Positions 3,892 to 64,000 of a stretch of DNA of 64,000 bases are shown here, piece after piece. A program made the position numbers and the translations under genes. The stretch is taken from the NCBI GenBank assembly GCA_017499595.2, contig CM039004.1, positions 2,294,001-2,358,000 of the forward strand, given 5' to 3'. Under the pieces are notes generated by a model, which saw only the letters and a program-made list of their open reading frames with translations, did not search any database and was not told where the DNA came from. The number at the start of each line of letters is the position of its first letter. The first letter of the stretch is position 1. The DNA comes from Psilocybe cubensis (lineage: Eukaryota).

Positions 3892-3970
3892 CGAGAGAAA
3901 GAGACAGAAAGAAACAGAGAGAGAAGAGAGAGAGAGAAGAGAGAGAGAAGAAGAAAAGAGAGAGAGAAGA
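3892..3970. repeat. GA-rich purine microsatellite
   Basis: (GA)n/(GAA) runs read directly; lies downstream of the 4247-7350 gene. Confidence 0.8.
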
Positions 3971-4246
3971 CTCAACCGAGACTGTAGTGCAGGTGACAAA
4001 AGGCCTTTGAGAGATGCAGTAGCGAGCCAGCCAGAGAGAACAACCCGGGAACAGAAGACTAGGTTTTAAGAAAAGAAAAACCCGCCAAAGGCGGAGAGGC
4101 GAAGACTTGCCTCTAAAACATTTTTTGTGTCAACCGTGGTGACGTCAACGAGAGCCTAAAAGAGCGTTGACGAGAGGCCCAAGTCACAAAGACGTCACCA
4201 GGGGGGTTTTGAAAAAATTTTCGAGAAAAAAGTCAAAGAAAAAAAC

Positions 4247-7200
4247 CTAGAAGGGAACAATGTTCCGGGGGGAGTCCTCGGGAGAGACAGTGCCAGGAGG
4301 ATGTGTCACAGTCCTGTTGCCGTTATCGTCGAAATCTCGCAGTGCCACCCGCATGGGAAGCATCAAAGGTCTGATGCCGGTGATGGCCCGTGGTTTGTAA
4401 CCCATGCTTCCTCGGCGCTTAGGCGTTGCACCCTGGGAATCGCGCTTAGGAGAACCTGGGCTTTGAACCTGAGGTGTGCTGGGAGCAGACATGCTCGCAC
4501 GGTTGCTGGCATTGGCGATGATGATCTCCTCGACCTTGTTCATCTGCGAACGAAGGCTGGCCATGTTGAGAGGGCCACCGTAGATACCAACAGGGCGTGA
4601 ACGGACCTGAGTTTCGCCAGATGAAGCCTCCACAGCCTTGTTGCCAGTGGATTCAAAAGTGTGAGTGTCAGGTGCGGGCGTGGAAGGAGCAGAAACGAAG
4701 CCGGAGACAGATACGCCGTCGTCCTCAGCGGAAACGCGGGCAATGACGTCGGTAACACACAGAGAGGCGGTCAAGGGGTCGGTGGTGGCAGTCCCAGCAT
4801 CGATGATAGAAACACGTCCACGATTGGACGAGAAGGAGCCAAGAGAAGAGTCTGGCAGCAAGTTTGCCACCAACATGTTCTCTCCAACATCAGGATCTGT
4901 GGGATAGAAGCAGTTAGCAAAGGAAGTTTGACATAAAGAGGGAGTTGAATCAAATACTTACTAGACTTCCTACGCTCTTCCTCTGACACAACTGTCATGC
5001 TGAAGGAATCATTTGCATCCACTGAAGAGTCAATAGAGAATGACGTCCATACGGTAGAGGAAACACCAGACACCTCACGGGATGAGGGAACGGTATCCTC
5101 GTCGTCGCTGTCGTCAAAGCTAGACCCCGCAGCAACGAGCTGGAGGTCAGGCGCCGAAGCCACCTTGCGAAGCCTGGAGATTCGGCGCTTAGGAGGAGTT
5201 ACCGAGTATACTCGGCGCCTTTGCATGGGAGTAGGCGTCCATGCGACATTTAGAAGTTCCGGGGCCGGAACAGTCTCTTCTTCCATGACGGGATCGAGGG
5301 CGAGGTCGGTCTCCGTTGGGAGCGTAAATATGAGTTGAGGGACGTTCTCAACGCTGTGGGTTGGCGATGTCTGTTGGGAATAAACAGAGGGCAAGGAGTC
5401 CATGGAGCCAACAGTTTGGCCCATGCCCTCCCCCTCCAGGTCCGCTAAAGAATACGTTAAAAAAAGATTCCAAAAATAAAGAGGTATTCGAACCTGTGAT
5501 GTTCACGAAAGAAGTGGTGTTAACTAGATAAACAAACCAGGAGTTAGTAAAATGAAAACGAATGAAATATGTTTAACGCACCTATTTCGTTGGTGTCTGC
5601 GTCCACCTCCACCAGTCGTGTTAAAGCTGGGTAAGAGGACATGAAACCGGTCGCCTCCGGATGAATAACTAGCCAATCCATAATTGTTTGCGCGTCCCTT
5701 TCTTCATGGTCCGTTACGACTTTGTTAAGCTGAAAAAGGGACATCTCCTCCACCGCTGGCTCTTTCTTAGAAACCTTCAATCCAAACGCCGATAAGAACT
5801 CTTCCAAATCATTGATGGGAACAGACGATGCATCTTCCTCGGCATTATCCCTCATTGCGGCAAGGATATCGGCCCAAGACATCCTGGTCGGGGCGGGGGG
5901 CTCTTCGTCAGAGGACGTGTTGGTGGCGTGGTCAGACTGGCGATCCGCAGGTACTTCAGTGGTGATTGTGTTACCGCTTGAGGGTTCTATTTGAACAGGT
6001 TCGCTGTCGGCGTCCTCCACAATGGCGTGGATCGATCTCCTCCCTGCCGACAATGATGAACTGGGCGAGGGTACGATGTTCCTGGGAGAGGCGCCTGCCT
6101 CCAATACTGGCGTTTCTATCTCCATGAAGGAGGGCCAGCGATGTCCTGCCCTGGAAGACCCCGGCATAAGATTGAACTCGGGCGAGAACTGGGGTAGCAA
6201 GGACTCCCTGGCGGATATGCTGAAAGATCCTCGAGTGGGGATCGAATCCGTCGAAAACTTATTGCGGGACAGGGCTACCTCGCTCTGCGATGGGGGGGAA
6301 GAACTGACACTTTTCACTTCTTGGCTGCAGATAACACTGGGCTCCTCCACCACGCTTTTTGCTGAAGTGCATGGGACCGCTTTAGAGAGAAACTTCATAA
6401 CTGGTAAAGGTATTAAATATCAACGACCTAATTGACTTGAGCTAGTTTGATATACTCACATCCATTTCGTCCTTTTTTGGCCGGGAGTGGCAAGGGGAGT
6501 GACTCCTTAGAAAGGTCTTGGGCTACTGAGAAAAAATCAATTATAAATTCTTGTATTGGAGGCTGTATATACTCACCTTTTCGAGTTTGCTTCGTCATTG
6601 TAGGAGATGTTCTTTGTTCTTGGGCAATATCTTGATTGGCTGAGTACAAATCATATAAACAATTGTCAGTCATATAACCCTCATATACACTTACATCCCT
6701 TTCGACCTCGCTTGACGGATGATGGCGAGGATATTCTGTCTTGGGAGATATCTTGGACAGCTGAACGATATATCAGTACATGTAAAGGCGTAGACTCCGT
6801 GTACACTTACGACCTTTGTGACCACGCTTGACTGATGTAGGAAGGGGTGTAGTATTGTGATCGATAGTATGAACAGCTGAAGCTACCACATGTCAACATA
6901 TACAACAACAGATAACACAGCAATGTACACTTACATCCTTTGCGACCTCGATTAACTGATGATGTAGAGGGTGATTTATCATAGGCGTTATCTTGAACAT
7001 CTGGGCGTATGACATATCAACACAGAGGCCTCCTGTACTGACTATATATTAACTCACATTCCCTTCGTCCTCGCCTGTTGGACGGGTGAGGGAGTGTATA
7101 ATCCTGGGCGGGGTCCTGGATAGCTGTATACAATTTTTAAAAAAAGCGAGGACAGAGCCAGTAAGAATATACACGCACACCCATGTCTGCTTCTATGTAA

Positions 7201-7350
7201 CGAAGGCGGGGGGAGTTGGTCCCGGGCGATGTCCTGCAGGTACCTGGAGGAGGGAGGGTCAGGCATGTTAAACTTCATGCTAGGAGACTGTTTGAAAGGG
7301 CGAGATATTAATCTCGGATATTGAGGTACCGGCTCAGATGATAGGTGCAT
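4247..7350 (-). CDS. Uncharacterised Ser/Pro-rich, likely disordered protein (~848 aa, 11 exons) with an N-terminal exon-encoded repeat array
   Basis: Hand-spliced exons 7350-7179, 7123-7058, 7000-6935, 6876-6811, 6760-6695, 6639-6577, 6525-6460, 6400-5582, 5523-5494, 5444-4962 and 4896-4247. All introns are GT..AG, 49-65 nt. The CDS totals 2547 nt and joins ORF-track fragments 5544-6398, 4771-5424 and 4247-4876 in one frame. TATAAAT at 7422-7416. The start codon choice is inferred. Confidence 0.8.
6460..7244 (-). repeat. Tandem array of duplicated exon+intron units (six 63-66-nt exons plus one repeat at the end of exon 1)
   Basis: Repeats YLQDIARDQLPPPSLHRSRHG / SIQDPAQDYTLPHPSNRRGRRE / YVQDNAYDKSPSTSSVNRGRKG / SVHTIDHNTTPLPTSVKRGHKG / PVQDISQDRISSPSSVKRGRKG / SNQDIAQEQRTSPTMTKQTRK / VAQDLSKESLPLPLPAKKGRNG. 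DNA similarity is visible, e.g. tacacttacatcc(c/t)tt(t/g)cgacctcg near 6686 and 6926. Confidence 0.85.
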
Positions 7351-8782
7351 ATTGGGTGTTGTATGATTTGATGTTTTGTTAAGGAAGAAAGACAGGATTG
7401 ACCAGTAGGCAGGATATTTATACCGGCGGGGTGATCGAGCATTATTTATATATTTGTCTGTAAAGCTTTTTGTCACATGCTGCACGACAATTTATGCTGA
7501 AGATAATGTGCTTTGAAAGACCATAAATGAGTTGAATGAAACATAGGACCTCGTTCATCGATAAGTCCGGCGACTTTCCTGAAGGGAGTCCTGATCCAGT
7601 ACAATTGCATTGACGTTCCTATGATTTGGGACTATGCCAATCAAAGATATCAAATAAATCTATGGAAGATTATTCAGTGGAATAGAATATTTACTTGAGA
7701 GATTCAGACCTGTGATGAAAAAAAAATCCGCGTAAGGCCTTTCTAAGCCCCTTATGGGCGTCTAATTTGAAGCCTGTGGAATCCTTGGATTGTCGCAAGA
7801 GGCAGGAGTGATAAGTATGTAATCCATGTGTGGAATAGACGCACTTACAATGACTCGCAATTCATCGTCTACGATGGAACATTTCAAGAAATAGTACAGC
7901 GCCGCAAACATCAGTCTCACCAGCAATGATGACCACGTCGACACGTTAATCGTGGTTGAGGTGATCGAATGATCAAATTACAGGCAAAATTCTGCATTTT
8001 ATACCCAGATTCGATACAGAGTTCAGCACATAGACCGCGTTTTCATCTCGTCGAAAGTGGTGTAGAGCAAGGGATGTTGTCAGTTGAATTTGAGTTTGTG
8101 GTTTGGTTTAAACTCGGCGGCAGTTGCGTTTTGTAATTTGGCATTTAGACTCCGACGCTCCGCCAAATTGGAACTCCGTTGATCGCCGTCGCTTCTATAA
8201 GTTCTATTCACAGAACTTATTGTGCTGGTTTGGCCCACTGTTCAACCAACCTTCAGCGCTTCAGCGCTCAGCACTATGGAAGTTTTCAAGTACTTGTTAA
8301 TTCAGCTACTTAACAACGTTTAATTACCAGTCTCTATGTTGACCGGAGGAGATCCACATCATACAGGAAGTTTGCGTCGCTATTTTCTCGTGCAATATAA
8401 TTTTTGACAAACGCTCAACGTGTTGTACACATCAGCTCAGGACATCGATTGTGCCAATCTTACTACCGAAGCCTAAACGGGGAAAGAAATTTCCCTAATT
8501 AGGCACACTATTATCAAGATCTAATCATTCTAACCATGACCAGTACATTCAATACCTTTGGACCGGAAAACATGCAGAACGCCTCGACAGGTTTTGTGCT
8601 GTTTCGTTCCTTTCCAGAACTCACCGATTGCCCGCATCTCCGGAATTCTCACTAAACGTTTCACGTGTAATCACCTATTGTATTAAGTCACAGGCCGTAT
8701 CACCGTGCAACCCACAACAACCCCAAGAGCATTTTATCTCATCCTTCATCACCTCCACTCTCAACTCTCTTATAACAGAATC

Positions 8783-13791: not shown

Positions 13792-16321
13792 TTAACGCCC
13801 TGCCACTATACGCCCCGGGTCATTTTGAGCAATACTGCTCATGTGGGTACTACCAGCGATTAGTGAGATAGCCTTCTGCATCTCAGTCCACTCTGAATCC
13901 CGAGGAAACGCCATATCACCAATGTCATACACATATAAGCGCCCGTCACTCCCTCCCAATCCAACCCTCCGACCTTCTTTCCTGTCCCACTTGAGCTTGT
14001 TGATAGCCCGACCGGATCCCACAATTGTGGATACGATGGGGACCTAGAGCAATAGTCATGAGCCTATTGGTTCGCATGGGGATCAGGTTAAAAATATGTA
14101 CCTCAGTGTCTACATTCAGATTCCACAAATCAAACTTGCCAGATCCATCAACTGAACCGAACATTGCTGGATGTGCAGGATGCCATTTGACATCATACAC
14201 ATAATCGTTGGCCTCTTCGAAAGAATGTAATGGGTTTATGACCTGAGGCGTTGTCGATGGCTTCGTCAGCGACTTCGAGCGCCACAGCTTGATCGTCCAA
14301 TCGACTGAGCTGGTTAAAAACAAGTCCGAAAAGTCAACGGGCCCGGCAAGAGGATGAAAGTGCAGTGCCATAATAGGACCTCCGTGGCCCCTATACACAT
14401 CGAATTGGTTGAGCCCGGCTTTGGCTCCTGCGCGATCGTATCGGTTCGCTTGGTAGATGTTACCCTCCTCTGTGCCCACCATGAAGGCTGTAGTTTCGCT
14501 GTGCCTGAAGTCGAGTGATGTGATAGCGACATCTGCTGTTTTGTTGTGTCCAGAATGTACCAAAGAAAGTGTTTCCTGAGATGTAAACGGATCAGCGCTT
14601 TCCCTTATATTCTAGGTTGAGAAGCATACCTGAGGCTGAGCTAGCATATCGACTAGCCAACTGCACACAGTGCCATCTGTGCTGCTGGTTATTAAGTTGT
14701 GGGCATTTTGGGTGCCCACCATTTGCATTGCATATACAGGATGAGTATGCCCTGTCGAAGACAGTGGCGTTTTCAGAACAGGAAGCTGTTTCGACCGCGT
14801 ATCCCATAAAAGAATCTGCCCCGCATATGTCCCTCCAAAAATTAGATTGGGGTGGAATGGTGAGAACAACACTGAAAGGACGTCCGACTATATCGAGTAA
14901 ATATAGCTTATAAAGAAAACAGAAGTAAGAGACCCACAGGGGAATGGAAGATAAACTCTGGGCGCTCCATCAAATGCATATTCCAGATGGCTACAATGCC
15001 ATCTGGCTCATCTAGAGCGGCCGGGTTCTTATTATAGGAGGCCACACTCAGTTCTGGGTACTTTATGAAGCGTTTGTCAGATACAGTTCATAAAACGATG
15101 AGAAAAAGACTGGTATAATCACCTTCGGTGACCAATCTATATCTGTAATGGAGCGATTCTTTCCGTGACGTTCATCCCAGAATTCGCACACAAGTTTGAC
15201 ACGTCTTCCTTCATAGTTCTCCCTATATAGTCATCAAAATTGTGCATGTAGGTCAATTATTATGGCTTACCCTCCTTCACTAGCTTCATTATAATCACGA
15301 GCATAGTCATAGTCATTGAGCACTCTCTGAACAAATTTGGACGACTGCTCTACGAATTCAAGGAATTCAGGAGCATTGAGTATACTGGCCCTCTCTTCTT
15401 CGGAAAGCTCTGTAAAGGGACGTTTAGTGCTCGAACTATAATACAGATTGGCCTTCCATTGACTACTAACCGCGAATTTCGTTTTCAATCTCTCTGTCGA
15501 GTTTAGCATTCTCTTCCTCTAGCTCCAGTGCTTCTTGTGCTTTGATATCGTCCTCAATGCCCAGGGTCTTGATAATAGATTTTGGGATATCAACAACCTC
15601 GTCAGGTAGTGGGGTCACGGTAACCTCAACGAATGCTGTCTGGACTTCTTTACTATACATGACGCGCTCCTAGCATAACAGTGTTGAACTTTGCGCACAT
15701 GCAGGAACCCGGTTAACTTGGCCTACAAACCTTTTGAGGATACTCGTACAACTCTTGTTCGATATCGATCAGGCTCGTGAACCTTTTAGGTATGAGGATT
15801 CTGTTCAAGAAAAGGTGAAATTTGGTGCCATGATCACATTATAAGTAAGAGAGAAAGAAATTACCTCTCCACATTGTTATCTGTCGACGCATCGCTCATC
15901 ATTGGGAAAGTTCCTCCGTTGTTAGGCCTGATATCTGGGAAATCACTTTGCCTACTCTCTCTTCCCGAACCAGAACTCGACAGTCCGCTGGTATCGCCAG
16001 GGATGGTTATATGCCGTCCAACAGCCGGGGTTTCTGGTCTTGACACTGAAGGAGATGGTACTTTGTCGACCTCTGTCCCGTCTCCTCCACTGGGACCAAG
16101 AACAATATCGACTATCCTGCGCACCTCCGCATCTGATACAGATGGACGCGATGGCTAATACGAAGGTGAAAAACAACGGTCACGATTAGGTTACAAGTGT
16201 CTGAGCGTACTGAGCTTGGGCCTCGCGACTCTAAAAGTCCGCGCTGGCGGTCCTCTCTTGCTTTTCGCAGTGCAGCAAGCTTCGCCTTTTTCTCTTCCAT
16301 CTCCTGGCGTAATTTACTCAT
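13792..16321 (-). CDS. Cytoplasmic dynein intermediate chain (WD40), copy 2; multi-exon
   Basis: [62 protein letters not shown]; ends RIVAGR-TAA like copy 1. Intron positions parallel copy 1. Confidence 0.92.
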
Positions 16322-17296
16322 GTTGAAAGTGCGAGGCCCACGGGTGGCAGCAGTTTGATATGATGACCGCGTATATCGTCCTTTGAATAGTCTGACGCGC
16401 CGGAGTTGAACATTGAACTGCAGTGGCAGTGCTTAATTAAGCTTCGTTTGACATCAAGGCCGTGCGACAGAGCTCGGACTTCGGAGAGTTACGCCTGATC
16501 CGCACATGCTCCCAATTATCTCAATACACATTGCTGCTGTCAAGACTACCTATACCAATGACAAAACAAAGTAAATACTCTTTTGAAGTACATGAGTATT
16601 CTTCACCAATCAGCTTACATCTTTGAACTAATCTATATATAGATCATATATCGCCGTCGCTGAAACTGAGAGAGAAGGAGAAAATCTACTCATAGCTATT
16701 CTCTAGTTGTACAAGTATGTCTACGGATATTTTCGCATGATATTAATTGTAATACATAATAGTACTTGCAAACTTCCCTTTCACTTTCTCAAACAGGCTC
16801 CTACGCTCCATCAAGCCCGACTCGGAGCAGGCAGATCTCCAACTCTTGCTGGTCATACCAAAAATTGTATCTATGTTGCTCAATATAATGGGATATATAA
16901 TGTATTCACTTGGGTCATCACTAAAGTCTGTTGTGGCGAGTTTATTCTGAAAATATACTAGAAGAAGCTGTGCACCTGGCAGACCCGGGGAAAGTAATTG
17001 GGGCAACTGATGAAGAGGTAAAACGCATTAGAGAGTTAAGCTTCACAGTAAATACACTCTCTTGCCCATATATTGATTCTATCCACTGCCTGACGCAGCT
17101 GCCCATCCTTTGCCCATTAGACAAATCAACTTGACCATAAAAGGTGCTTTATTATCCGAAACGGGATGCCAAGTGATTAGTGAAGATATCACGTGCATAA
17201 GTGTTTAGCTTCCGAACAACACAGAGCAAAACAAACGCCTCTATTGCAACTGGGAAGCAACCATTGGCTAAGTTCAACGCGGTTGCGTCAGACAAA

Positions 17297-18656
17297 ATGT
17301 CGAGTTTTGGTGCGCTTCATGTTTTGCATAGCTGGCCAGTACTAATTGGCGAAATCTTCGCAGATGAACTGAGCTACACTACTCCTCCATCGCCACCATT
17401 CGACAGCATCTCTTCCATACGATACTCACCCACAAATCCTGACCAATTGTTGGTCTCTTCGTGGGATGCGGTGCGTGTTATCTCTTCCATGATCTACGTG
17501 TTGCATACTTATGTATAAGCTTAGACAGTTCGGTTCTATGAAATTGGAGAAAGTGGCGTAAAACAAAGCGAGGCAAAGGCCAAATTTGACCATCGAGCAG
17601 CGGTCCTTGCATGCTCGTTCTCTTCAGATGCAGCGCGCGGCTACAGCGGTGGCCTAGATACGGCTGTTCGAGAGTTAGTTATACGCATATCAGTTATCCT
17701 CAAGGACTTTGCTCACTGTCTGCTTATAACCGATCAGACTCGACCTGTCTACCGAGAAAATAACCAACCTCGGCACACACAATGATTCGATTTCTTCAAT
17801 GACCTTTACGAACACAAATAGTGCGTTCTTCTTTCTGTGTTTTTTCATGTTTCATATACATTATTTTCCTCCAGATGCGCTTATCACCGGTTCGTGGGAT
17901 CGTTCAATTCGTTTTTGGGACCCTCGCGCAGCAACTCCCCAACAAAGCATGCATTCCACTCCTGAACGAATATACGCCATCGACCACGTCAATAGCACCC
18001 TAGTTGTAGCAATGGCTAGTCGATTATTTCACATATATGATATCAGAAAAATGGATAAACCGGCGCAGGAAAGGGAGAGCAGCTTGAAATACATGACAAG
18101 GTCTTTGGCATGCATGCCTGATGGCCAAGGTCAGTTCTCGGTGATTGTTGTTGATTACATACTGAAGATTATCAATTTATATGTAGGTTACGCGACGGCC
18201 TCCGTTGAGGGACGCATAGCTGTAGAATACTTTGATCCATCCCCAGCATCCCAAGAGAAGAAATATGCTTTCAAGTGCCACCGACAAACTATCAATGACG
18301 TCGATCACGTCTGGCCCGTGAACTCCTTGGCCTTCCACCCCGTATATAATACTTTTGCATCAGCTGGTTCCGATGGTACGGTGTCAATTTGGGACCACAA
18401 GGTCAAAAAGCGTCTGAGGCAGTATCCCAAATATCCCGGGCCTGTGTCAGCTGTTGCATTTAACTGTGACGGTTCCAAGATAGCGGTTGGGGTCAGTTAT
18501 ACGTGGGATGAAGGTGAGGCCGGACAAAAGGCAAATGCAATTACGCCATGGATCGGAGTGAGGAAGATCGGAGACGAAGTAAAGGTGTGTACAAATCTTC
18601 ATATTTCCATACTATATGTCTAATATCTTGTCTAGCCAAAATCTTGGGCTGGCTAA
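17297..18656 (+). CDS. BUB3: Spindle checkpoint WD40 protein Bub3
   Basis: DSISSIRYSP, LLVSSWD, RESSLKYMTR, SVEGRIAVEYFDPS, KKYAFKCHR, VNSLAFHP, TFASAGSDG, WDHKVKKRLRQY; last exon PKSWAG-TAA. The KYAFKCHR and EGRIAVEY motifs fit Bub3 better than Rae1/Gle2. Confidence 0.88.
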
Positions 18657-31398: not shown

Positions 31399-34300
31399 CT
31401 ACGCAGCAGCAACAACCACTGTGGCACCTTCTCTGTTAAGGCCTTCACCGCCCGCATTTTCATACCAGAGGCGACCCTCCGTTGTCGGCGCTATGTACCC
31501 AGCACGGATAGTGAAATCACCAAATCGTTCCCCATCCAGTCGTTCAAGTGCGTAGCGTTTGATCATCGGTCTCAAGATAGCCAAAATCTCGGGCTCCGTT
31601 ACAGATTCTGTAATATTACGATTAACCTTTGAATAGTAATCCAAAGCAGTTACGAACCTCGGTAGATTTTATTCAGGCGTTGGCCATAATAGCCCCCACC
31701 AAGCAACATAGCGTAGTTTCCAGGTGCTTTGCCGACAAAGGCGATTTCTAAAACATTTTTTAGTTAATGAATGACTACGAGTACACAAAACTTACCAGCT
31801 AGGTAGGGACGAGCGCATCCGTTGGGACAACCAGTCATTCTCATAACGATAGAGTCGTTTCTGAGGCCATTTTCTTCGCAGATTTTTTCGACCTTGTCGA
31901 TCAGGACAGGAAGGTACTACAAATGAATAAAAAACCATTTTGTTAGGCATCGAGGTACATCGGAAAAAAAATATGCGCACCCTCTCTGACTCAGCCATGG
32001 CCAATCCACATGTGGGGAACGCTACGCAGGCGGAACTCGACAAGCGCAGTCCGGAGAAATCAAGATTATCCAACTTGTACTTCCTCAGGAGCTCTTTGAT
32101 CTGTTCCAAATCCTCGTCGGCGACGTCGGACACTAGTAGATGCTGATTAGCTGTCAGCCTGAAGGTGCCCTTGTGCACTTTTGCGATTTCACGAAGACCG
32201 GTCTTGAAGTCACGTCCAGGTTCGTCCTGAATTCGGCCGTTTTCAATAAAGACAGTGAAGTGGTGCTTTCCGTCTGAGCCAGTGTGCCAACCGAAATCAT
32301 CGACGTTACGGTCGAATGTATATGGTCGCTCAGGCTGGAGATTATATCCAAGAAGTTTCTCTACTTCAGCTTTGTACACATCGAGACCCATACGGTCAAT
32401 TGTGTATTTCAAGCGAGCATTCTGGGAAAGTTATGTCAGTACTCAAAAGCCTTTTTATCTCGTAAAAAGGTAGTTCAGTACCTTGCGACTGCGAATGAAA
32501 GAAAATAAATTAGATTGATATAACATCACAAAGTAAATCGCTTGCCAACGTACTCAGTGCGGTTTCCGTTATCTCTTTGAACGAGCATGACCTTCTCTGC
32601 GACATATTTCCCCTGTTCAGGTGTGCAGAAACCAATGATACTACCGGCACGGGGGTACGTTTTCTTATTTCCGTGAGTGACACCCATTCCGCCGCCAATA
32701 GAAACATTGAAGCCTTGCAACTCGCCGTCATCGCCGACAATAGCAATGAATCCAAGATCGTTTGCAAAGACATCTACATCGTTGGTAGGCGGTACAGCAA
32801 CAGCGATTTTAAACTAAAAGAGCATGATTGTTAAACGATTTGGAAATGGTATAAGCGTTAATAATACATACCTTGCGGGGCAGGTAGAATTCCCCATACA
32901 GAGGTTCGAAGTCTTTCAAAGCCTCACCAGCCACAAGCTTCTTATCCAACCAGATCTCGTGGTAAGCAGTCGTTCTAGGGATGAGGTGCTCGCTGACTTC
33001 TTTAGAAAACTCGTAGACCTGTGCATGTAATTTCGACATGGTGGGGATGGATGAACAGATGACATTTCTATGGCATACATCAGAAAAAAAAGGAATGTCA
33101 AAGTGCACAGAGCGCTCACCTGTTGACGTCACCACATGCTGCGAGAGTGTCCAAGAGGACGCGATTGATGTCCTGGATGGCAGGCTTCAAGTGCCGCTTG
33201 ATGACACCGTGGAATTGGAAGGTCGAGCGGGTAGTGATCTTGAATGTACCACAGCCATGCTCATCTGCTATCTGGTCCATTTGTAACCATTGGTGAGGCT
33301 TGCAGACTCCTCCGGGCATTCTGACGCGGATCATAAAGCTGTATGCGGGCTCAACACCTTGCGCCTCGCGCTCTTCGCGGATATCCCTGTCATCTTGTTG
33401 ATAGATACCATGGAACTTGGTAAGCTGACCATCACTGGGGGCCAATGCGCCGGTGCTGAAGTCCTCCAGTCCCTCTGCGATGGTGCCACGGAGGTACCCA
33501 GAAGCAGCCTTGATGTGCTCATTGGTGATAGGTTCTGGCTCCGCTTCGGTAACCTCGATAGAATCGACGCCCAATGCCTTCCAGAGAAGAGGTTCCCAGA
33601 CCTTGTATCCCGTCTCAGACCCGTCCGCATCCTGGTCGTCCCCAAGACCAATATTGACAATACGCTCGGCACCAAGCTTCTCGAGACGCGAGTCTAAATC
33701 CTTGCCCGGCTTGTTGTAGTAGTGGGCGTCCTCGGGACGAGGCCAGTAATGGCTGTCGCCCATAGCAAATACGGAATAGCGAACCTTGCTCAGAAGCTGA
33801 CTGCCAGCAAGAGCAGCGGCGTTCAAAGCCTTGAAGAATGTTCGTCCGTTCTGCGGAGGCTCTCCTTGTCCAGCAGTCGAAGTAACAAAGACGACGTGTT
33901 CTTCTTCTGCGAGGGTGTCCAGGGTGTACGTATCCAGGGTGGCAATGGTCGTCGACAATCCACGGGCTTTGGCTCTGTTGGCAAGTCGCTTGGCCTTTTT
34001 CTCAGCCGCACCACCATCAGAGGCGTAGAGGATGAGAAGGGGAGGAGAGTCGAGGGCGTTGAGAAGAGTGTTGTAGGCCTCCTCAGCGCGCTTCTTGCGT
34101 GCCTCCCTGACAGTCTCGCCAAGACTGCTAACAATGTCAGCAGCCATCTGAGGTGTCGAACGAACGAGCTGGGAAAGGTGATTCTGACGGTCAAGGAATG
34201 CTTTGAGGTCGTTCTTGATGGCGTCAGAATCCAGAGAGAAAGGCTCCTTTCCAGCTTGCTCCTTGCTGGGATCCCATCTATACAACGGCCAGTATCCGGT

Positions 34301-36154
34301 GTCGACAGCCAGCTTAGTTTCCTTCAGGATCTCGAGAGCAGACACGTCCTCGGACTGATAAGGTAGGTATGCAAGAACAACGCTAGGTCCGTTGAATCGA
34401 TCTGCCTCAGCAAAGGCTTGAAGTACCTGTGCGTAGGAAGAAAAGACAGCGACACTCGCAACGAAGACATCACCATGGTTCATAGCATACAGGCCAACAT
34501 CATGTTTGCGACGGTGAGGATCGAGATTGTTTCGTGAGGAATAAGGGAGGGTGTCGAGTATCAAAATGTTGACATTGAGACCAGAAGCAATAGCGTGGTG
34601 TAGACCTGAAGAACCTAAATCGTAAGACCAAGCATCTGAACCGATGATCCACCTTGAACGAGATGGAAGGAACTCTCGAAGAGCCAGAATGCGGTTAGCC
34701 GCAGGATGGTCCAGAGGTTTTGACTCGAGGCTGTCAATAATCTCCTTACCCAAGGACCTGCTCTTGATAGCGTCGTCCTTGGACAAGGCCCACTTGCTCA
34801 GTAACGAATGAAGGTCTTCATCTAACCCCCCCTCTTGAAGCAATTCCTGGACACTATCGAAAAGAGCTGACCTTGAATCCAATTGTCCCCTGACGCGTCC
34901 CAACGCGTACTCAGGGGTAGTAGCAATCTCACCCTGGGATGCCACGAGGTGCGGTGAGTTGGCGATTTCTAAACGTTCGTTGAACAGATGCGCAAGAATT
35001 TTGGTGTAGGCAGCCTCGTGTTTGGGGACATGTGGAAGGGTATCTGTGATGGAAATAATCTTCGGAATGGGACCAAGTGCTAATGGCGAAGACGGCAAGT
35101 CGTTGCAAGACCGAATGAACTTGATGACGTCCGGTGTTTGAATCTGAGAAGAATCACCGAGAATGGCGCTTTGAACTGCAACATCTTGCCTTTCCTGGAG
35201 CGCAGTGACGACGTCGAGATACAATGGTGTCCATTTACTGTGCCATCTGTATACTTGCTCCAGAACAACGACACGGGTCACCGACGGGGGAATATCATGC
35301 AGAAGGCGAGAATATGGGATGGGGTTGACAAGAGACAAAGAAATAAAGGATACACCTTCGATGTCGGAGGGCAAATCCGCCTTTCCGAGGATGAGGAAGA
35401 TGGTGTCAGGTTCTGACGATCCTCGAATAGTCCAAGGTCGCAGAGGGCGTCTAACCAAAGATAGTGTCTCTAAGGCAGCAGATTCGTAGTGCTTGAAAAG
35501 TTCGGTAGCTTCAGAGGAGGCATGCACCTGTATGTGCCCGTTCGTAGAATGACCATTCGTGTAATGACCATTGGCTTGTCCGTGAGGAGGCGTCACATGT
35601 CCGTTCGCGGCTCGGGGAGTGGTCGGACGTTTTCCCGCAACGAGAAAAGAGTAGATTTTTTCCTCCGGAACCTCGTCAGGAGTCTCCAGAGGCACATAAT
35701 TGTAGAAAGCATGGACTACGGCCTTCCTTTCAAGCCGGGCGAGTCGAGCGGCAAGCAAGGCATTGTCGTGGGCTTGCTGTGCGGTGGTGGAAAGAAGGAA
35801 GAACGGGACGGCGGACCGGAGTAGCAGCACGTCCGAAAGATCATCCTGAACGGCAAGGTGTAGAGCGATTGGTAATGTGGAAATTTCCCCAAGCTGCAGA
35901 ACCAGACGTGTCAACACCTGGGAGGTAGCAGATGCGGTGAAAGAAGTGAGGTTGGCAGTATAGCGAAGCAGCGTGGAGGCTGAGTCGGCACCAAAGGGGG
36001 AAGAGATGACCCTAGCTTTATGTGTTGAGGACCTTGACAAGGTGTTATACTTTTGTGCGAATTGGGAAATTACGGGAGGAGGCGGGAGAGAGTCTACGAC
36101 GACATCTGAGGTTAGATAGGCAATGCGAGCCACCACTGGCACAGTAGAGTCCAT
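31399..36154 (-). CDS. MET5: Assimilatory sulfite reductase beta (hemoprotein) subunit, Met5/Ecm17/Sir1-like
   Basis: PFOR-like N-terminal region ([18 protein letters not shown]); flavodoxin ([23 protein letters not shown]); [37 protein letters not shown] and MTGCPNGC siroheme/4Fe-4S ligands. The first exon is ~3 kb. Confidence 0.95.
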
Positions 36155-36346
36155 GACTGGAAAAAGACGAAGAATAGTCAGAGACAAGAACCCAGAAAGT
36201 CGGTAGAACTTGCTTTACTTTGTGATGCCCTGTGTCGTTACAGACAAGATCGCCTGTAGTCTCAAATACATTGGGAAATTTCTCGATGAGCAAGTTATTT
36301 GCAGGAAGCACATCATTCCTTTGCAAATGTTTGCAAGTGTCTAATC

Positions 36347-45198: not shown

Positions 45199-48100
45199 CT
45201 ACAAATTCAAAGGCGGTACACCCGTCGCATAGAAATTGCCCCTCTGCGTACCACTCGTGCTTCTAGCTTTCGCATTCGGATGGTGATGATGATGCACATG
45301 ATGATGGAACGCCTGTCCATGGTGCGGCGTGTGCCCGCCCCCATACGGCGCCGACGCATACCCACCATGCAAACCGCTGCTCTTGCGCTTCATCAACTTG
45401 CGCTCCCGACGCTGCTCTTTGCGGCTCTTCTGGTTTTGCTGCTGTTGCTGAGCCTGAGTCTGTGCTTGCTGCTGCTGATACTGTGCACTAAACCCCAATC
45501 CCGAGCTAGCAGACGACGGCGAGCCAGGCATCGACACACTCGCGCCAACACCCGCGCTGCCCAACGGCAAAATCAAAGGCGACGACATCGTCGATCCACC
45601 GCCCATCGTGATCCTCCTCCGTTTCGCGAGCTTGTCACTGCCCCGCGTCCTCGTCGAACCGGCACTCCCACTCCCACCAGCACCACTCCCCGCCGCCAAC
45701 GCGCCAAAGCCCAGTCCAAGGCCCAACCGCCCAGAGCTAAACGGACTGCTCTTTATCACATTGCCATAATCCGCACTCGAATGCGGGGTATGCATGCCGC
45801 CCATACCCATACCCATACCCATCCCAAACCCACCCCATCCGCTCTCCCTCGTCTGGCGGAACGCGCCGACAGAGATCATATCCCAGCGCGCGAGATTCTT
45901 GTGCACATGGACATTCTCTTCCTGGTGTTGCTGGTGCTGGCCAGAAGACTGATGATCCTGTCCATCTTGTTGCTGATGCTCTTGACCACCAGGCGATGAT
46001 GCCTCGCCGTTAGCACCCGAATCATTTTCGACATTGCTCGCACCAGCATCAGCCGCCGACTTGCGCGTGTCCTCGGGGTCGTCCAGGAAGCTCGCGTCAA
46101 GCACATCGTCCAGCTGAATGGGCTTCGCAACGTCCTGCTCCTGGACTGCGTCACCAACAACACCCGCGTCGCCCGCACCAATGACTGCCTGGTCATCCTG
46201 CATATCAGAATTAGCAGCAGCGACGGCCGCAACGGACGAAAGCAGCAGCTCAAGCGGCGATCGCTCGTCGGTCGTGGCAGCAGGCGACGAAGGGTCATGC
46301 GGATCGTTTGCTAACACACCAACACCACCAGCCGCAGGGGTCGAGGCGGACGATACAGAAGGTGGCGGGGCATCGGCGATGCTGCCAGTGCTGGAGATGG
46401 ACGCGCTGAGGGTGTGCAGGTGCCTGCGCAGAAGGTGCTCGACCTGGAAGGGAAAAGGAAACCCACGCGTAAGTTTGTTTGGTTCCTTTTCGCGTGCGCG
46501 TGCGCGTGATGATAGATAGATAGAATAGAAGCGAGCAAAGACGGTAGATAATGAACGAAGAAGAGATAATGACGATGATGGTGATGGACAATTGCACAAG
46601 CGGATAGATAAATGAAAAAAGGAAAGAAGGGACAAAGCGCGAATAAAAGCAGGCAGGCAGGCAGGCACAAAAAAAAGAACCGAAAAAAGGTACTCACAGC
46701 ACTACCCATGCCGATATCCCCCACAGCAGGCGTCCTCGGCGCCCTCCTTCTGCCCATAAACCGCGGGTGTGGGCTGGGCACATCGGCGCCCTTGACATCA
46801 TCTCCAATCACCGCCTGGCGCGTCTCCCTGCTCGGCGAGAACACGCCCTGCCTGGGACCCGTCGGCGTCTTCTTCCTCTTCTTCTTATTTTTCTTCTCCT
46901 TGTTCTTCATCTTCTTCACCACGCTCCTGACACTCTCCACACTATGCATCGTCGCGCTCTCAGCACCAGCGGCCTTGTCAACGCCCTTCGCCTTCCTCCT
47001 TTTCGCCGACCCATTCGTGTTCTTCGCCGCCGCCGCCGCCAGCGCCATCTTCCTCGCCATCGCATTATGCTTATTGATGACATGTATATTCTTCCCTCCA
47101 CCGCCCGGCGTGCCCACGCCCATACCTTCGTCCACCACACCCGCACCAGCGAGATTCTCGTCCCACCCAGCCGTAACACTGGCGCTCGCACCGACGTTCG
47201 CGCTGTCCTTGCGCTTTTTCATCATCCGCCGGCTCAGCTTGTTCGTCATGGCCTTGATCATCCGCTCGTCGCACTCGTACCCATACGCGCCACCATCATA
47301 CTCGTACTCCTCAAGCTCCGACGGCGACATCGCCTCGAGCTCGCTGGCACTGCTGCTGAACCCAAGAGCGATCATATCCTCATCCTCCTCTTCCTCGCTG
47401 CCCATCTCCTCATCACTATCCCCTTCCTCATCGTCATCCGAATCCTCTTCAGAAGACGATTCCTCCGACGACTCGTCGAAAATCGCTTCATCAGAATCAT
47501 AAAACACGACTCTTCCCTGCAAAATATCCAAAGCGCTTGGTCCAGCACCCGCCCCCCACATACCCACCAACCCCCTCTTCCTCTTCTCCTTCCTGCCTCT
47601 GCCCCTTCCTTCCACACCACCCCTTCCCAAGCCTCTACCCAGACCAGGACTGATACCCGGACTACTAACCGTGCTAAGCGGGTTAATCGCCGACACGGAC
47701 AACGGCAAACTGAACAGCCGCATCGCGCGCTCATTCGGGAGATCATCCTCGCCCACAAGCTCCTCATCCGTCGTATCACCCGATCCCTCAAGCTCGCCAT
47801 CCTCCTCCTCATACCCTCCCTCCGAGTGCGTGAACATCTCCACATCGCTGTCTCCTTGCTGCTGCATATCAGCATATGGCGCAAAGTACGCGTGCTGAGA
47901 AAGCGAGTCGTCGCCATACACACTGTTCGTCGCGCTGCTCGACGCGAAGCGGCTCGCGTCCGCCTCAAAGTCAAAGTCGACCATCGACAACGTCGAGTTT
48001 TGCGTCTCGCCTGTTCCGTTTGTGAACACGATCTGGCCGTCCCAGCCTTGTGTCACCTCGAAAGGCAGAGCCTCGAAGGGCTTGAGTCTTTTCAATGCGT

Positions 48101-49706
48101 TGTCGCCGCCGGCTGCGCCGAACCCGCGCTCTGTGAAATCTGATGCCGCGCACGAGATGTCGCTCTGGTCGCCCTCTTCACCCATCGATGACGCAAATGG
48201 TGAATGCGCATGACTGAAGCCGTTGCGTGGCGCGCTGTTGAACCCAGCGGTCCCCGACGAACTCTTGCTGGAGATCGAGTCGGTGTCTGACAGATTGGCA
48301 AAGAACAAGTCGGCGTCAAAGCTGGACTCATCCTCCTCCTCTGACCAGCCAGTTGCGAGACCAACATAGCGGTGGCGATGATCGTCGGTGCTCTCTCCTT
48401 CTTCTTCATCCTGCATCATCTGCATTTGCATCTGCGCGAGTTGCATCTGCGCAGCAGACGATCCCAGTGTGACATCCTCCTCCGTCTCCTCATCCTCATC
48501 CTCACCCTCCGCATCCGCCTCGTCGTTATCCGCATCTGCCTCGTCTTCATCTTCATCTTCGTCGTCGTCTTCCTCGGTCGCATCGCTATCCACGTCCATC
48601 TCAACGTCGCTCGGGCCAACGCTCTTCTTGCGAGGGCGGATCACCCAGTCGTTGTTCCGCCCTCCATTCCGCTTCTCGCCACCGCCCAAAAGCTCGCGCT
48701 TAACGCGCGCCTTGTCATGCACGTCCGCGAGAATAAAGCTCTCCTCCTCTGCCTCGATGTCCGAGTCCGAGTCAAACTCTGACAGCGACGACGAGGACGA
48801 GGATGAATTAGTCGACGAGAGGGAGGAGGAGAGGGCCGAGGCAGATACAAAGGTCGGGAGGTCGGCGACGGCCATGACCGTAGGAGCGGCACCCGCGTTT
48901 ACATTTTTGCGGTGCAGCACATGGGGGCCCGCCAAGGCCATGGCGACGTCAGAGTCGGACGAGAGAGACGAGGTCTCGTCGTCGCTCTGGAGCACGCGCT
49001 TCTTCTTGACAGGCTTCTTGCGCGCGTGTGGGTGAGAGAGGGCGCCTGGACGGGGCTTGATGTGGTTGTTGTGAGTCTGGCTCGGGCGGGCCTTGATTGA
49101 CTTTGGATGTTTGCCCGGGGCGGCTGTTTTGGGGTTGAGAGGCTTGTACGGGGGCGAGCGGGCGGAGGCATAGAGGGTGGATGTATGCTGCTGATTCTGG
49201 CGGGCGAGAGACTTTGGGGGGCGACCGCGCTTTTTGGGGGCGGGGGCCGTGCTTACTGGGGCCGAGGATGCAGGGGGGTCTGAGGCGCTGGTGTATCCGG
49301 CGTTTGCGTAGTCGGACGTCGTCTCTGCGTGATTCTTGTACGATTTTGCTGCATGGGGCGGTTGGGACTGACGGCGCTTTGCCAGGAGACTGGGTGGGAC
49401 TGTGAGTTTTATCTTGAGCGATGGCTTCGATGTGGATGTGGACGAGCTTGTGCTGGGTGTGGATGTGGGTGCCGATGAGGATGGGTAGGGTGGGCCAGAG
49501 GAAGAAGAGCTGCGGGACGAGGAGCCCGCTGCATACATGAGACTGAGCTCTGCCATGGAGAGGGGGACGCCGGGCTTGGGAGTGGGTGGGGGTGGGCGGG
49601 GAGCAGCATGGGTTGGGGGATGGCAGGTGCACTCGCCGTCGCAGACAGGACAGATGTCGCTGTCGTCGCCGTCGTCGTCTATCGTATAGGAATGTGGAGG
49701 CGACAT
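45199..49706 (-). CDS. Large acidic, low-complexity nuclear protein (~1417 aa) with Cys motif and AT-hook; possibly Ifh1/Crf1-like coactivator
   Basis: Two exons, 49706-46698 and 46443-45199 (intron GTGAGT..CAG, 254 nt, phase 0). CPVCDGECTC; KKRGRPPK AT-hook; D/E tracts; FDADLFFANL; GDTTDEE..EDDLP; LARWDMISVGAFR; basic NLS-like runs. Confidence 0.8.
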
Positions 49707-62000: not shown

Positions 62001-64000
62001 CCAGTTGCGAAGTCAAAAAGTTCTTCAGCGAATTTTGGAAGTATCGAGCAAAGTTCATTAACCCCCATCGTGATATCAAAGTGGAAATCAAGGATATTCG
62101 TGTCCACGATCATTGGTGCGGTTTGCATACTTTGATTGACGTTCATCAGTTCGTATAGCCAACCGTTCTTGATATATGTTGAAGGAGCGAAACTTTTTCC
62201 AGGATGGAAGACAGGTATTCCCAAATCGCTAGCATTTTCGGCCTTTGGTGTTTTCTGCGATGACGATGCTTCAGGAAACGCCCCATTTGCGAGAAGCTTT
62301 GGTTTCTTTATAACGAGAGGAGGTTGATAGTGTCTTGACCAATCTATCGTTGGGGCTGGACCAAAAACCTTCGGTTGGAGAGTACGATGAAATCCGACGT
62401 CTTCCAAATCAACGGTGATATACACTGGTCCAGGTCGCCTTCCCGAGGTAATACCTTGCACGTCAGAGCGGAATGTATAGACTCCTAGTTCTTTAACCCT
62501 TTTTTCCTTCATCTTTTTCCTTTGTCTACGAGTCATTTTCTCTACGGGAATGACACGGTTTTCTTGATCAGACTGGTTTTCAAATTCGCCGGACGGACCT
62601 TCATCCAGAGGGCTATGTCTTGAAACGTTTGCCTTGGTCTGTTGGTTTGACGATGATTTTGCAGTTTTGAGATGTTTTTTATTATCGACAGGAAAGGATA
62701 AGAGCGTCTGTCTCTCGCGACCATATTTGCGAGCGCCTGCAGTGATGATGTCGTGTTTGAACTTTGACGGTTTGCGATGTGACTTGCTCGTCAAACCCCG
62801 AGAATTACTCCCTTGACGCACTGAATTGCCAGACCTAGCGAGCATATAATCGATTGCACTTGGATCCCGCAAGCGTTCTGCACCCCCGTGCCTCCGAGGT
62901 TTATATCGGCGGCCATTCCCTCCCACTGGTCGAGCTCCATCATCATCAGAGAGGTTGCCATGTGTGAGATCTATGACCGGTGGTGTTTTAGGCCGTTGGT
63001 ATACGAACAAGATGTCGTTGGCGTCAGAGTCTGGCCCTTCCTCAACCTCCGTATCTTTAGTGTCGACGGGAGATTCAGATGAACTGTCAGAATCACTGCT
63101 GATATCGACCTCAACCTCGCTCTCAGAGTCCCCTTTAATTTCACGAATTGGTTTAGGGTTGCTTGTTATCTGCACTCGGGTTTGACCAGGAAGAAGGCTA
63201 TCGGGGTCCACACTACTCCGTCTGTTTTCCTGCTGCCGATTTGCCCGCTTTTGTTTTTGAGGTGCAGTACTTTCTTGGGCCAATTTGTTGATCATAAAAG
63301 CTGGCATCATCTTATGCAGTATGTTTTTCTTCTTCGGCTCAAGATCCAATACGATGTCTGAGCCAGGTAAAGCAGAACGAGATCGCGACCTTGCGTGGCC
63401 TAGCTCAGCAGTAGGGAGCATTGACATGTCTTCTTCCGCGCCAGAGTCGACTGGAGTAACATCTCCGTACGAGTTTCTGCGAATGCTAGCTGGTGGGGGT
63501 GAAGAGAAATGCTGGGGCTCGTGGAAAGCATTGTTATCATCACCTTCAGGCTCTAGATCTGACATATCATAATCGTCTTGAAAGTAGTCATGCAAGGCAG
63601 CTGCATGATGCGGAACAGCAGAACTCTGGCGGTTAGTCGGAAGATTCTATAGGGAATGAACATAAAAAATGCAATGTATATAAGTTATAACCTACCTCCT
63701 TCTCACTTTGTGAGATCGAAGAAGATTTCTTATGCTTGTGTACAAAATTGGTCTTGTTAAGAGGGAATGGTTTGGCCTTTTTTGATTCTTCCAGACGTTT
63801 CCTTTCGCGTTCCTCTCGTTCCCGAGCTTTTTGTTCCTTCTCCATACGTTTCTTATGTCTTCGAGCTTCTCGAGCGGTCTCCAGTATCCCTTCATCTTCC
63901 TCTTCGTCAGAAAGGCCTTGCAGAATCGGTGGATAATGTTTTTGTTGTTCGCTTGTAGATGCTTCTTGGGAGAGTCCCCTCCGGCGTTTGCGTCTATGCA
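59099..64000 (-). CDS. Mus7/MMS22-family DNA repair protein (5'-partial; start lies beyond the window)
   Basis: A >3-kb exon with a disordered N-terminal part followed by a helical region (YEASEDAWLTIYSVCALSQFSVHG, KYDKYVALILNRC, FTSRKHANL..E, FYNRMAAL). Further exons lead to ...EYRKLCFEVIAILKEN..WSP-TGA at 59101-59099. The family call is from motif recall. Confidence 0.7.

What the first reader, a model, noticed from the sequence alone, without database searches (positions are those of the whole stretch)
6460..7350. Hidden gene built from a tandem array of symmetric 63-66-nt cassette exons, one basic repeat per exon
Seen: six consecutive exons of 66, 66, 66, 66, 63 and 66 nt (7123-7058, 7000-6935, 6876-6811, 6760-6695, 6639-6577, 6525-6460). 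They are separated by 50-59-nt canonical introns and each is phase 1-1. Each encodes a ~22-aa unit x-x-Q-D-(S/P/T-rich linker)-[KRN][RK]GRKG, with a seventh unit ending exon 1, and they splice in frame into the 819-nt exon starting FMKFLSKAVPC. The ORF track shows none of this. Inference: the array arose by repeated exon+intron duplication. Any subset of cassettes can be skipped without frameshift, which would tune the number of basic motifs (AT-hook-like RGR cores, NLSs, or membrane/microtubule-binding patches next to SP/TP phosphosites). I do not recognise this architecture as a described family.
Basis: partly seen in the sequence, partly recalled or inferred. Interest (0 to 1): 0.8.

Follow-up and report, generated by a model that had tools for sequence, protein, structure and literature searches.

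The report
Repeat exons in a Psilocybe gene
A mushroom (Psilocybe cubensis) gene of unknown function has grown a run of six near-identical mini-exons by copying one exon-plus-intron unit again and again, which is a tidy but ordinary way for a floppy protein to gain repeats.

Summary
Six minus-strand exons (66, 66, 66, 66, 63, 66 nt) have GT..AG introns of 50-59 nt, all in phase 1. Each encodes one ~21-aa unit, and a seventh unit ends exon 1.

The gene is real and expressed. Spliced contigs of run X1 confirm intron 1 and intron 8 exactly. The five junctions between exons 2 and 7, and the exon 7/8 junction, have no RNA cover.

The gene is not hidden. It is Psilocybe cubensis JR316_0008259, a 'hypothetical protein'. 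That model equals the window's translation once intron 6 is retained and the exon 4 acceptor sits 6 nt upstream.

The family appears only in Psilocybe-named records and a few unnamed fragments, with no Pfam or PDB match, and is predicted disordered.

Three near-identical P. cubensis loci each carry 7 units. The P. cyanescens orthologue carries about 2. This points to lineage-specific tandem exon+intron duplication.

All 64 skipping combinations stay in frame, but nothing shows skipping, and coding exon skipping is rare in a related mushroom. The units lack the AT-hook GRP core.

Function is inferred only: a basic multivalent arm (+13) on an acidic protein. Interest is low to moderate.

The parts
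7179..7350 (-). Exon 1 (172 nt), ATG at 7350. Its last 60 coding nt (7239-7180) encode repeat unit 0.
   Evidence: The start matches P0008. An RNA contig of X1 covers 7522-7179 and splices to 7123.
7124..7178 (-). Intron 1, 55 nt, GTGCGT..CAG, phase 1
   Evidence: X1 joint 7123/7179 skips 55 nt. Ends are CT..AC on the + strand, which is GT..AG on the - strand. DNA runs X2 and X3 read through it (records 16 and 24).
7058..7123 (-). Exon 2, 66 nt, unit 1
   Evidence: 66 nt of the X1 contig lie on it.
6935..7000 (-). Exon 3, 66 nt, unit 2
   Evidence: Present in P0008. No RNA cover.
6811..6876 (-). Exon 4, 66 nt, unit 3 (QD replaced by HT). The database model uses an acceptor 6 nt upstream, giving exon 6882-6811 (72 nt).
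   Evidence: Which acceptor is used was not resolved.
6695..6760 (-). Exon 5, 66 nt, unit 4 (closest to unit 2: 75% DNA identity)
6577..6639 (-). Exon 6, 63 nt, unit 5 (most degenerate basic block)
6526..6576 (-). Intron 6, 51 nt, GTGAGT..CAG. It is the only intron whose retention stays open, and the database model treats it as coding.
   Evidence: No RNA cover, so spliced versus retained is unresolved.
6460..6525 (-). Exon 7, 66 nt, unit 6
5582..6400 (-). Exon 8, 819 nt, starts FMKFLSKAVPC. Ser/Pro-rich, with a conserved stretch near its end.
   Evidence: X1 contigs cover 5582-5753 and 5890-6243.
5524..5581 (-). Intron 8, 58 nt, phase 1
   Evidence: The X1 loose end at 5582 (16 letters) is the reverse complement of 5523-5508 (one search read).
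5494..5523 (-). Exon 9, 30 nt
   Evidence: This is the only GT/AG pair that gives an open frame. Matches P0008.
4962..5444 (-). Exon 10, 483 nt
4247..4896 (-). Exon 11 with stop TAG at 4249-4247. Holds the most conserved C-terminal motifs.
   Evidence: Two versions of X1 contigs cover 4598-4871.

Best explanation
This is an expressed 11-exon gene of Psilocybe cubensis (locus JR316_0008259), on the minus strand from 7350 to 4247. It encodes an ~848-867-aa, almost wholly disordered Ser/Pro-rich protein. Relatives turned up only in Psilocybe-named records and three unnamed fragments.

The six 63-66-nt exons arose by repeated tandem duplication of a ~121-nt module, made of the last ~66 coding nt of exon 1 plus intron 1. 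The intron is phase 1 and the coding part is a multiple of three, so every new copy became an in-frame exon automatically.

The expansion is lineage-specific: about 2 units in P. cyanescens and 7 in P. cubensis. It predates the split of the three near-identical P. cubensis loci, which all keep 7 units.

Each unit is a short linear motif: hydrophobic residue, QD, a second acidic residue, a Ser/Thr/Pro linker, then a basic block of the KRGRKG type.

Inferred, not shown:
- The exons are spliced constitutively.
- Together they form a multivalent basic arm (net +13 over 152 aa) on an otherwise acidic protein (-33 over 660 aa).
- That arm raises avidity for an acidic partner, such as importin, nucleic acid, or the protein's own acidic body.
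For: Shown:
- Exon and intron anatomy.
- Letter-identity of the window's translation to P0008 under the database splice choices.
- Introns 1 and 8 spliced in X1 while DNA runs X2 and X3 read through them.
- Unit similarity z = 25.7. Array introns are more alike than they are to non-array introns (0.594 against 0.538, shuffles 0.50).
- A unit HMM finds 7 units in each of P0008, P0001 and P0007. The model was built from P0008's own units, so those hits are by construction, and P0001/P0007 are 96% identical. In P. cyanescens P0002 it finds 1 significant unit (iE 1.8e-4) plus 1 weak unit (iE 2.1).
- Exhaustive phmmer of 1.84 billion representatives gives 5 hits at E <= 0.001, query included. Three word-based searches add only P0002.
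- No Pfam family and no PDB sequence match.
- AlphaFold2 mean pLDDT is 32, with 833 of 867 residues below 50. The Atlas model has pLDDT 0.36.
- Charge split of +13 against -33.
- Among the three P. cubensis loci, 10 sites vary in residues 37-207: nine in exons and one in the intron-6 segment. None of the nine falls in the QD pair or the six-residue basic block, which make up 8 of 21 unit positions. My rough arithmetic gives (13/21)^9, about 0.013, which hints at constraint on the motif.
- All donors in the array are GTAAGT, GTGAGT or GTGCGT, and all acceptors are CAG.

Established knowledge: coding exon skipping is rare in an Agaricales model (1% of coding events, PMC5034255). Symmetric exons that encode disorder often arise by internal tandem duplication (PMC3632108, abstract).
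Against: - No RNA contig covers exons 3-7, so five cassette junctions and the exon 7/8 junction rest on sequence signals and on the database model alone.
- The database model differs from this one at two places: intron 6 kept as coding, and the exon 4 acceptor 6 nt upstream. I could not decide either.
- Between units, exons are no better conserved than introns (0.578 against 0.594). Most of each unit is therefore weakly constrained, and the array could be nearly neutral.
- The unit count for P. cyanescens rests on one annotated protein.
- Only 2 of 7 units match a strict K[KR]x[KR] pattern, so the nuclear-import reading is weak.
- The three P. cubensis loci could be uncollapsed haplotypes rather than paralogues.
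Confidence: 0.7

Rival explanations
1. Regulated cassette system. The symmetric exons are skipped in varying subsets, tuning the number of basic motifs per protein.
For: All 64 subsets of the six cassettes keep the frame and create no stop, giving proteins of 717-848 aa. The X1 contig that carries exons 1 and 2 ends 2 letters past exon 2, which could mark a branch in the assembly graph. That is a very weak hint.
Against: No skipping joint was reported in any run, though exons 3-7 had no RNA cover. Splice sites are strong and uniform and the introns are 50-59 nt. Exon skipping made up 1% of coding-region events in Schizophyllum commune, where intron retention dominates (PMC5034255). All three P. 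cubensis database models include every unit.
Confidence: 0.08
2. The database gene model is the true main isoform. Intron 6 (51 nt) is coding and exon 4 starts at 6882, so the array is four small exons plus one 180-nt exon, with a hydrophobic 17-aa insert between units 5 and 6.
For: The window translated that way is identical to P0008. The same choice appears in P0001, P0007 and P0009. Intron 6 is the only one of ten introns whose retention stays open.
Against: The 51 nt have a GTGAGT donor and a CAG acceptor like their sister introns, and they align with those introns as the homologous part of the duplicated unit. The same pipeline may have made all the database models, so their agreement is not independent evidence. 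No RNA evidence either way.
Confidence: 0.3
3. The array is a set of AT-hook-like DNA minor-groove binders, which would make this a chromatin protein.
For: 3 of 7 units contain an RGR tripeptide flanked by basic residues. RGR is the part of the HMGA hook that enters the groove (PMC11354804). The protein is disordered like HMGA.
Against: 0 of 7 units have the GRP core. No Pfam family, AT_hook included, matched at E <= 10, though HMMER filters can drop very short matches. No other DNA-binding domain is present.
Confidence: 0.12
4. A precursor of repeated peptides released by dibasic (Kex2-type) cleavage, like fungal pheromone or repeat-peptide precursors.
For: KR or RR pairs precede the end of several units.
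Against: The first ~40 residues are polar and charged with no hydrophobic signal-peptide core. This was read directly; no predictor was run. An 660-aa conserved acidic tail follows, which is unlike such precursors.
Confidence: 0.03

Closest known systems
Psilocybe cubensis hypothetical proteins JR316_0008259, JR316_0005158 and JR316_0005213, and P. cyanescens CVT25_000055
   Same: JR316_0008259 (P0008) is this very gene: the translation is letter-identical under the database splice choices. The other two P. cubensis loci are 96% identical with the same 7 units. CVT25_000055 is 51% identical over the whole length.
   Different: The P. cyanescens protein has about 2 units, not 7. None of these proteins has a described function, and no paper in the searched library mentions the locus tags.
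Tandem duplication of symmetric (phase 1-1) exons encoding disordered modules (Schad, Kalmar and Tompa 2013, PMC3632108, abstract seen)
   Same: The exons are adjacent, of equal length, frame-neutral and phase 1-1. They encode a disordered repeat and arose by internal tandem duplication.
   Different: That work describes the human genome, where such exons are often alternatively spliced. Here the host is a mushroom with 50-59-nt introns, where exon skipping is rare. The units are very small (21-22 aa).
AT-hook arrays of HMGA-type proteins
   Same: Several short basic Gly/Arg motifs in a disordered protein, with an RGR tripeptide in 3 of 7 units.
   Different: No GRP core in any unit, no flanking prolines next to the RGR, and no Pfam match.
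Classical monopartite nuclear localisation signals, K-K/R-x-K/R (pattern recalled, from no call)
   Same: Two units (KRGR, KKGR) fit the strict pattern, and others are close.
   Different: Five of 7 units do not fit. No localisation predictor or experiment was available.
Earlier scan finding e1-2578574: rotifer CLIP-type gene with 13 phase 1/1 exon-per-repeat cassettes
   Same: One repeat per symmetric exon and lineage-specific block duplication. The follow-up agent judged it an ordinary repeat expansion.
   Different: That case is an animal gene with ~82-residue helical repeats in a known family. This one is a fungal gene with 21-aa disordered units in a family with no name. The earlier finding was not checked here.

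Membership tests
Tandemly duplicated exons | Adjacent exons of the same or nearly the same length and the same phase | tested here: met
   Lengths are 66, 66, 66, 66, 63 and 66 nt, all phase 1-1.
Tandemly duplicated exons | Sequence similarity between the exons beyond chance | tested here: met
   Peptide z = 25.7 against 500 shuffles. Exon DNA identity is 0.578 against 0.487 for shuffles.
Tandemly duplicated exons | Flanking introns duplicated with the exon | tested here: met
   Array introns are 0.594 alike, against 0.538 to the gene's 3 other introns and 0.499 for shuffles. The margin is modest.
Alternatively spliced cassette exons | Skipping keeps the reading frame | tested here: met
   64 of 64 subsets stay open.
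Alternatively spliced cassette exons | Transcripts with and without the exon exist | tested here: inconclusive
   No skipping joint was listed, but no RNA contig covers exons 3-7.
AT-hook (Pfam PF02178; GRP core flanked by K/R, per PMC11354804) | GRP core | tested here: not met
   0 of 7 units. The Gly-Arg is followed by K, R or N, or is missing altogether.
AT-hook (Pfam PF02178; GRP core flanked by K/R, per PMC11354804) | Match to the family profile | tested here: not met
   No Pfam family for P0008 at E <= 10. Filters may drop very short matches.
AT-hook (Pfam PF02178; GRP core flanked by K/R, per PMC11354804) | [quoted passage not shown] | not testable with these tools
   Needs a binding assay.
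Kex2-processed repeat precursors | N-terminal signal peptide | tested here: not met
   No hydrophobic core in the first ~40 residues, read by eye. No predictor was run.
Psilocybe JR316_0008259 / CVT25_000055 protein family (unnamed) | Full-length sequence similarity, including the conserved C-terminal motifs | tested here: met
   Identical to P0008. 96% identity to P0001 and P0007, 51% to P0002.

The most novel reading that the evidence does not exclude
A genus-restricted mushroom gene uses a recently expanded array of frame-neutral mini-exons as a valency dial. Stage- or tissue-specific skipping, or in-frame retention of intron 6, would change the number of basic KRGRKG motifs and so the protein's localisation or condensation. 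That would be a rare case of functional multi-cassette exon skipping in a fungus with intron-defined splicing.
Probability: 0.07. Interest if true: 0.55.

Novelty: new member of a known kind. Interest (0 to 1): 0.25.

Why it matters
The locus is a clean fungal example of how a phase-1 intron lets a ~121-nt tandem duplication add in-frame repeats to a disordered protein. It also shows a taxonomically restricted gene changing quickly, from about 2 to 7 units between two Psilocybe species.

It has practical value as an annotation test. Three database models of the same species treat the array differently: intron 6 read as coding, a shifted acceptor, and one model that starts inside intron 4.

It does not open a new kind of mechanism. 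The gene is already in the databases, and the attractive part of the idea, a regulated cassette system, has no support so far.

Tried and rejected
- Tandem Repeats Finder on 6000-7800: 0 rows. The units are too diverged.
- Whole genome of the window: not held.
- RNA holders: 'no RNA holder listed' on record. X1 proved to be spliced RNA when laid. X5 laid nothing. No X1 contig lies over 6244-7057, and parts without cover are not evidence.
- Pfam on single exons gave only sub-threshold noise: Phage-Gp8 at 12 bits and GluR_Homer-bdg at 18 bits, both under their cut-offs. Pfam on P0008, P0002 and P0006 gave 0 families.
- AlphaFold2 with a 9-row alignment gave mean pLDDT 32, so no fold search was run, since it would be meaningless.
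- ESM Atlas: best feature score 0.87, under the 0.9 bar, for unnamed fungal proteins; one row with TCO89 on 40% of its members scored 0.85. Structure TM scores were <= 0.21. Treated as no lead.
- PDB sequence search: 0 hits at E <= 1.
- Metagenome scan with alignment A3: 460 pattern matches, none confirmed. The first attempt with A2 had no conserved stretch.
- Protein search with the array (residues 25-215) among shorter proteins: 163 candidates, none at E <= 0.01. Cross-species unit counts therefore could not be extended.
- Earlier-findings look-ups by place and by sequence: nothing for this genome.
- Paper search for the four locus tags: 0 papers. A paper search on Psilocybe cubensis, transcriptome and alternative splicing gave 2 papers, neither on this gene judging by title and abstract.
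- Transposon cargo as the cause of the three copies: rejected for this locus. The neighbouring large ORFs are ordinary genes (sulfite-reductase-like, Mus7/MMS22, WD40).
- Supplementary files of the papers cited were not seen.
Full report
**1. Observation**

All six exons lie exactly where stated: 7123-7058, 7000-6935, 6876-6811, 6760-6695, 6639-6577 and 6525-6460. Their lengths are 66, 66, 66, 66, 63 and 66 nt.

The introns around them are 55, 57, 58, 50, 55, 51 and 59 nt. Each begins GTAAGT, GTGAGT or GTGCGT and ends CAG.

With the ATG at 7350 and exon 1 ending at 7179, every junction falls after the first base of a codon (phase 1). The frame runs open into the 819-nt exon 6400-5582.

Each small exon encodes one unit of about 21 residues:
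- a hydrophobic residue, then QD (HT in unit 3);
- a second acidic residue a few positions on;
- a Ser/Thr/Pro linker;
- a basic block of the KRGRKG type.

The last 20 residues of exon 1 form a seventh unit. The units resemble each other far more than shuffled versions do (mean BLOSUM62 score 30.1 against -7.2 +/- 1.45, z = 25.7). Tandem Repeats Finder sees nothing, because at DNA level the units are only about 58-59% identical.

**2. The whole gene**

Downstream I found three more phase-1 introns: 5581-5524, 5493-5445 and 4961-4897. They give exons 9 (30 nt), 10 (483 nt) and 11, with the stop at 4249-4247. That makes 11 exons and 848 codons, and all ten introns are phase 1.

**3. Identity**

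A protein search with exon 8 returned Psilocybe cubensis hypothetical protein JR316_0005158 (97% identity) and P. cyanescens CVT25_000055 (53% identity over half the query).

The 90% cluster of the former also holds JR316_0005213, JR316_0008259 and a 752-aa UniRef model. I translated the window with two changes: the exon 4 acceptor 6 nt upstream (6882) and intron 6 kept. The result is letter-identical to JR316_0008259, 867 aa.

So the window is P. cubensis, and the gene with all six mini-exons is already in GenBank and RefSeq as a hypothetical protein. The 752-aa model starts inside intron 4 and misses four units, so automatic annotation does stumble on this array.

No paper in the searched library mentions any of the four locus tags.

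**4. Expression**

No run is on record as RNA. When laid, however, X1's contigs are spliced:
- One 412-nt contig runs from 7522 to 7179, jumps 55 nt to 7123 and covers the 66 nt of exon 2. The skipped ends are CT..AC on the plus strand, which is GT..AG on the minus strand.
- A second contig ends at 5582 with 16 loose letters. These are the reverse complement of 5523-5508, the start of exon 9.

DNA runs X2 and X3 read straight through these introns. Introns 1 and 8 are thus confirmed to the base, and transcription starts upstream of the array.

X1 contigs also cover parts of exon 8 and, in two versions (6 and 23 differences), part of exon 11. That fits more than one copy being expressed.

No X1 contig lies between 6244 and 7057. 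The junctions of exons 2/3 through 7/8 are therefore untested by RNA.

**5. Origin of the array**

The seven [coding + intron] units align over their whole length. Similarities among units are as follows:

| Comparison | Identity |
|---|---|
| Array introns to each other | 0.594 |
| Array introns to the gene's three other introns | 0.538 |
| Shuffled introns | 0.499 |
| Array exons to each other | 0.578 |
| Shuffled exons | 0.487 |

Units 2, 3 and 4 are the closest (exons 0.63-0.75, introns 0.64-0.67).

A profile of the seven units finds 7 units in each of the three P. cubensis proteins. It was trained on P0008, and P0001 and P0007 are 96% identical to it. In the P. cyanescens orthologue it finds one significant unit (iE 1.8e-4) and one weak unit at the exon-1 position (iE 2.1). 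A doubtful third hit (iE 1.2) lies further downstream.

The simplest history is a tandem duplication of the end of exon 1 plus intron 1. It was already present once in the common ancestor and was repeated five more times on the P. cubensis side. The array was complete before the three P. cubensis loci separated.

One caveat: the P. cyanescens count rests on one annotated protein. I could not obtain its DNA.

**6. What kind of protein**

- An exhaustive HMMER search of 1.84 billion representatives gave 5 hits at E <= 0.001, including the query.
- Named hits are all Psilocybe. Three are unnamed fragments.
- There is no Pfam family and no PDB relative.
- AlphaFold2 gave mean pLDDT 32, with 833 of 867 residues under 50. 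The Atlas model has pLDDT 0.36.

The protein is best described as an intrinsically disordered, taxonomically restricted protein with islands of conservation.

The array carries net charge +13 over 152 residues. The rest carries -33 over 660 residues.

Among the three P. cubensis loci the array diverges about as fast as the rest: 8/171 and 7/171 differences, against 23/660 and 26/660. Yet none of the nine variable exonic sites touches QD or the basic block. My rough estimate of that happening by chance is about 0.013. This suggests selection on the motif and little on the linker.

**7. Mechanism**

Shown:
- The array exists.
- It is transcribed at least through exon 2.
- It is frame-neutral.
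- It expanded by duplication.

Inferred:
- The exons are constitutive.
- The seven basic blocks act together as a multivalent, positively charged arm. It could serve nuclear import, nucleic-acid binding, or contact with the protein's own acidic body.

I put about 0.7 on the structural and evolutionary reading with constitutive splicing. I put no more than about 0.3 on any one molecular function.

**8.

*Cassette skipping.* Every one of the 64 subsets keeps the frame and creates no stop, so skipping is formally possible. But the splice sites are strong and the introns tiny. In Schizophyllum commune, exon skipping made up 1% of coding-region splicing events, against 43-44% for intron retention (PMC5034255, passages). 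I give regulated skipping about 0.08.

*In-frame variation.* Only intron 6 can be retained in frame, and the database model does retain it. This, together with the 6-nt acceptor choice at exon 4, is the more likely source of isoforms or of annotation error.

*AT-hook.* Most AT-hooks have a GRP core flanked by K/R, with RGR entering the groove (PMC11354804, passages). Here 0 of 7 units have GRP and 3 of 7 have RGR. It may behave somewhat like a basic DNA-binding peptide, but it is not a member of that family.

*Nuclear localisation signal.* A strict K[KR]x[KR] pattern (recalled) fits 2 of 7 units.

*Peptide precursor.* This reading fails for lack of a signal peptide, judged by eye.

**9. Comparison and verdict**

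The architecture is a textbook outcome of tandem duplication of a symmetric exon encoding disorder (PMC3632108, abstract).

What is unusual is the host, a mushroom with intron-defined splicing, along with the very small unit and the speed of expansion in a genus-restricted gene.

The novelty is a new member of a known kind, and the interest is low to moderate.

Noticed in passing
window 7308-7522 (minus strand): The spliced X1 contig reaches 172 nt upstream of the ATG at 7350. That leader holds an ATG-TGA mini-ORF near 7478. It also holds a 44-codon upstream ORF (ATG 7442, stop 7310-7308) that overlaps the main start in another frame. TATA-like runs lie at about 7452-7442 and 7423-7411, so the main transcription start may lie downstream of these ATGs.
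   Followed up: no
P0001, P0007, P0008 (P. cubensis loci JR316_0005158, _0005213, _0008259): One assembly holds three 96-97% identical copies of this gene, two of them on the same 4.15-Mb contig. DNA runs X2 and X3 also show two versions over 6758-6958, with 3 and 11 differences. Whether these are paralogues or uncollapsed haplotypes is open.
   Followed up: partly
P0005 (P. cyanescens CVT25_000054, next locus tag to the orthologue CVT25_000055): A 224-aa degenerate relative sits beside the P. cyanescens orthologue. It keeps the N-terminal motif, one unit and part of the conserved middle stretch. It looks like a decayed tandem gene copy.
   Followed up: partly
window 3900-3967: A CT-rich simple repeat lies downstream of the gene's stop, and read laying skipped it as a repeat. 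X1 contigs cover 3968-4143, which is possibly the 3' UTR.
   Followed up: no
window 45199-49892 (minus strand): Two long open frames of 1193 and 500 aa have no Pfam match.
   Followed up: no
window 33116-36214, 60428-63646, 13946-18623: The neighbouring genes look ordinary. There is a flavodoxin plus sulfite/nitrite-reductase ferredoxin-like ORF, a Mus7/MMS22-family ORF, and WD40 ORFs.
   Followed up: partly
window 4247-7350, all ten introns: Every intron of the gene is phase 1, including the three outside the array.
   Followed up: no
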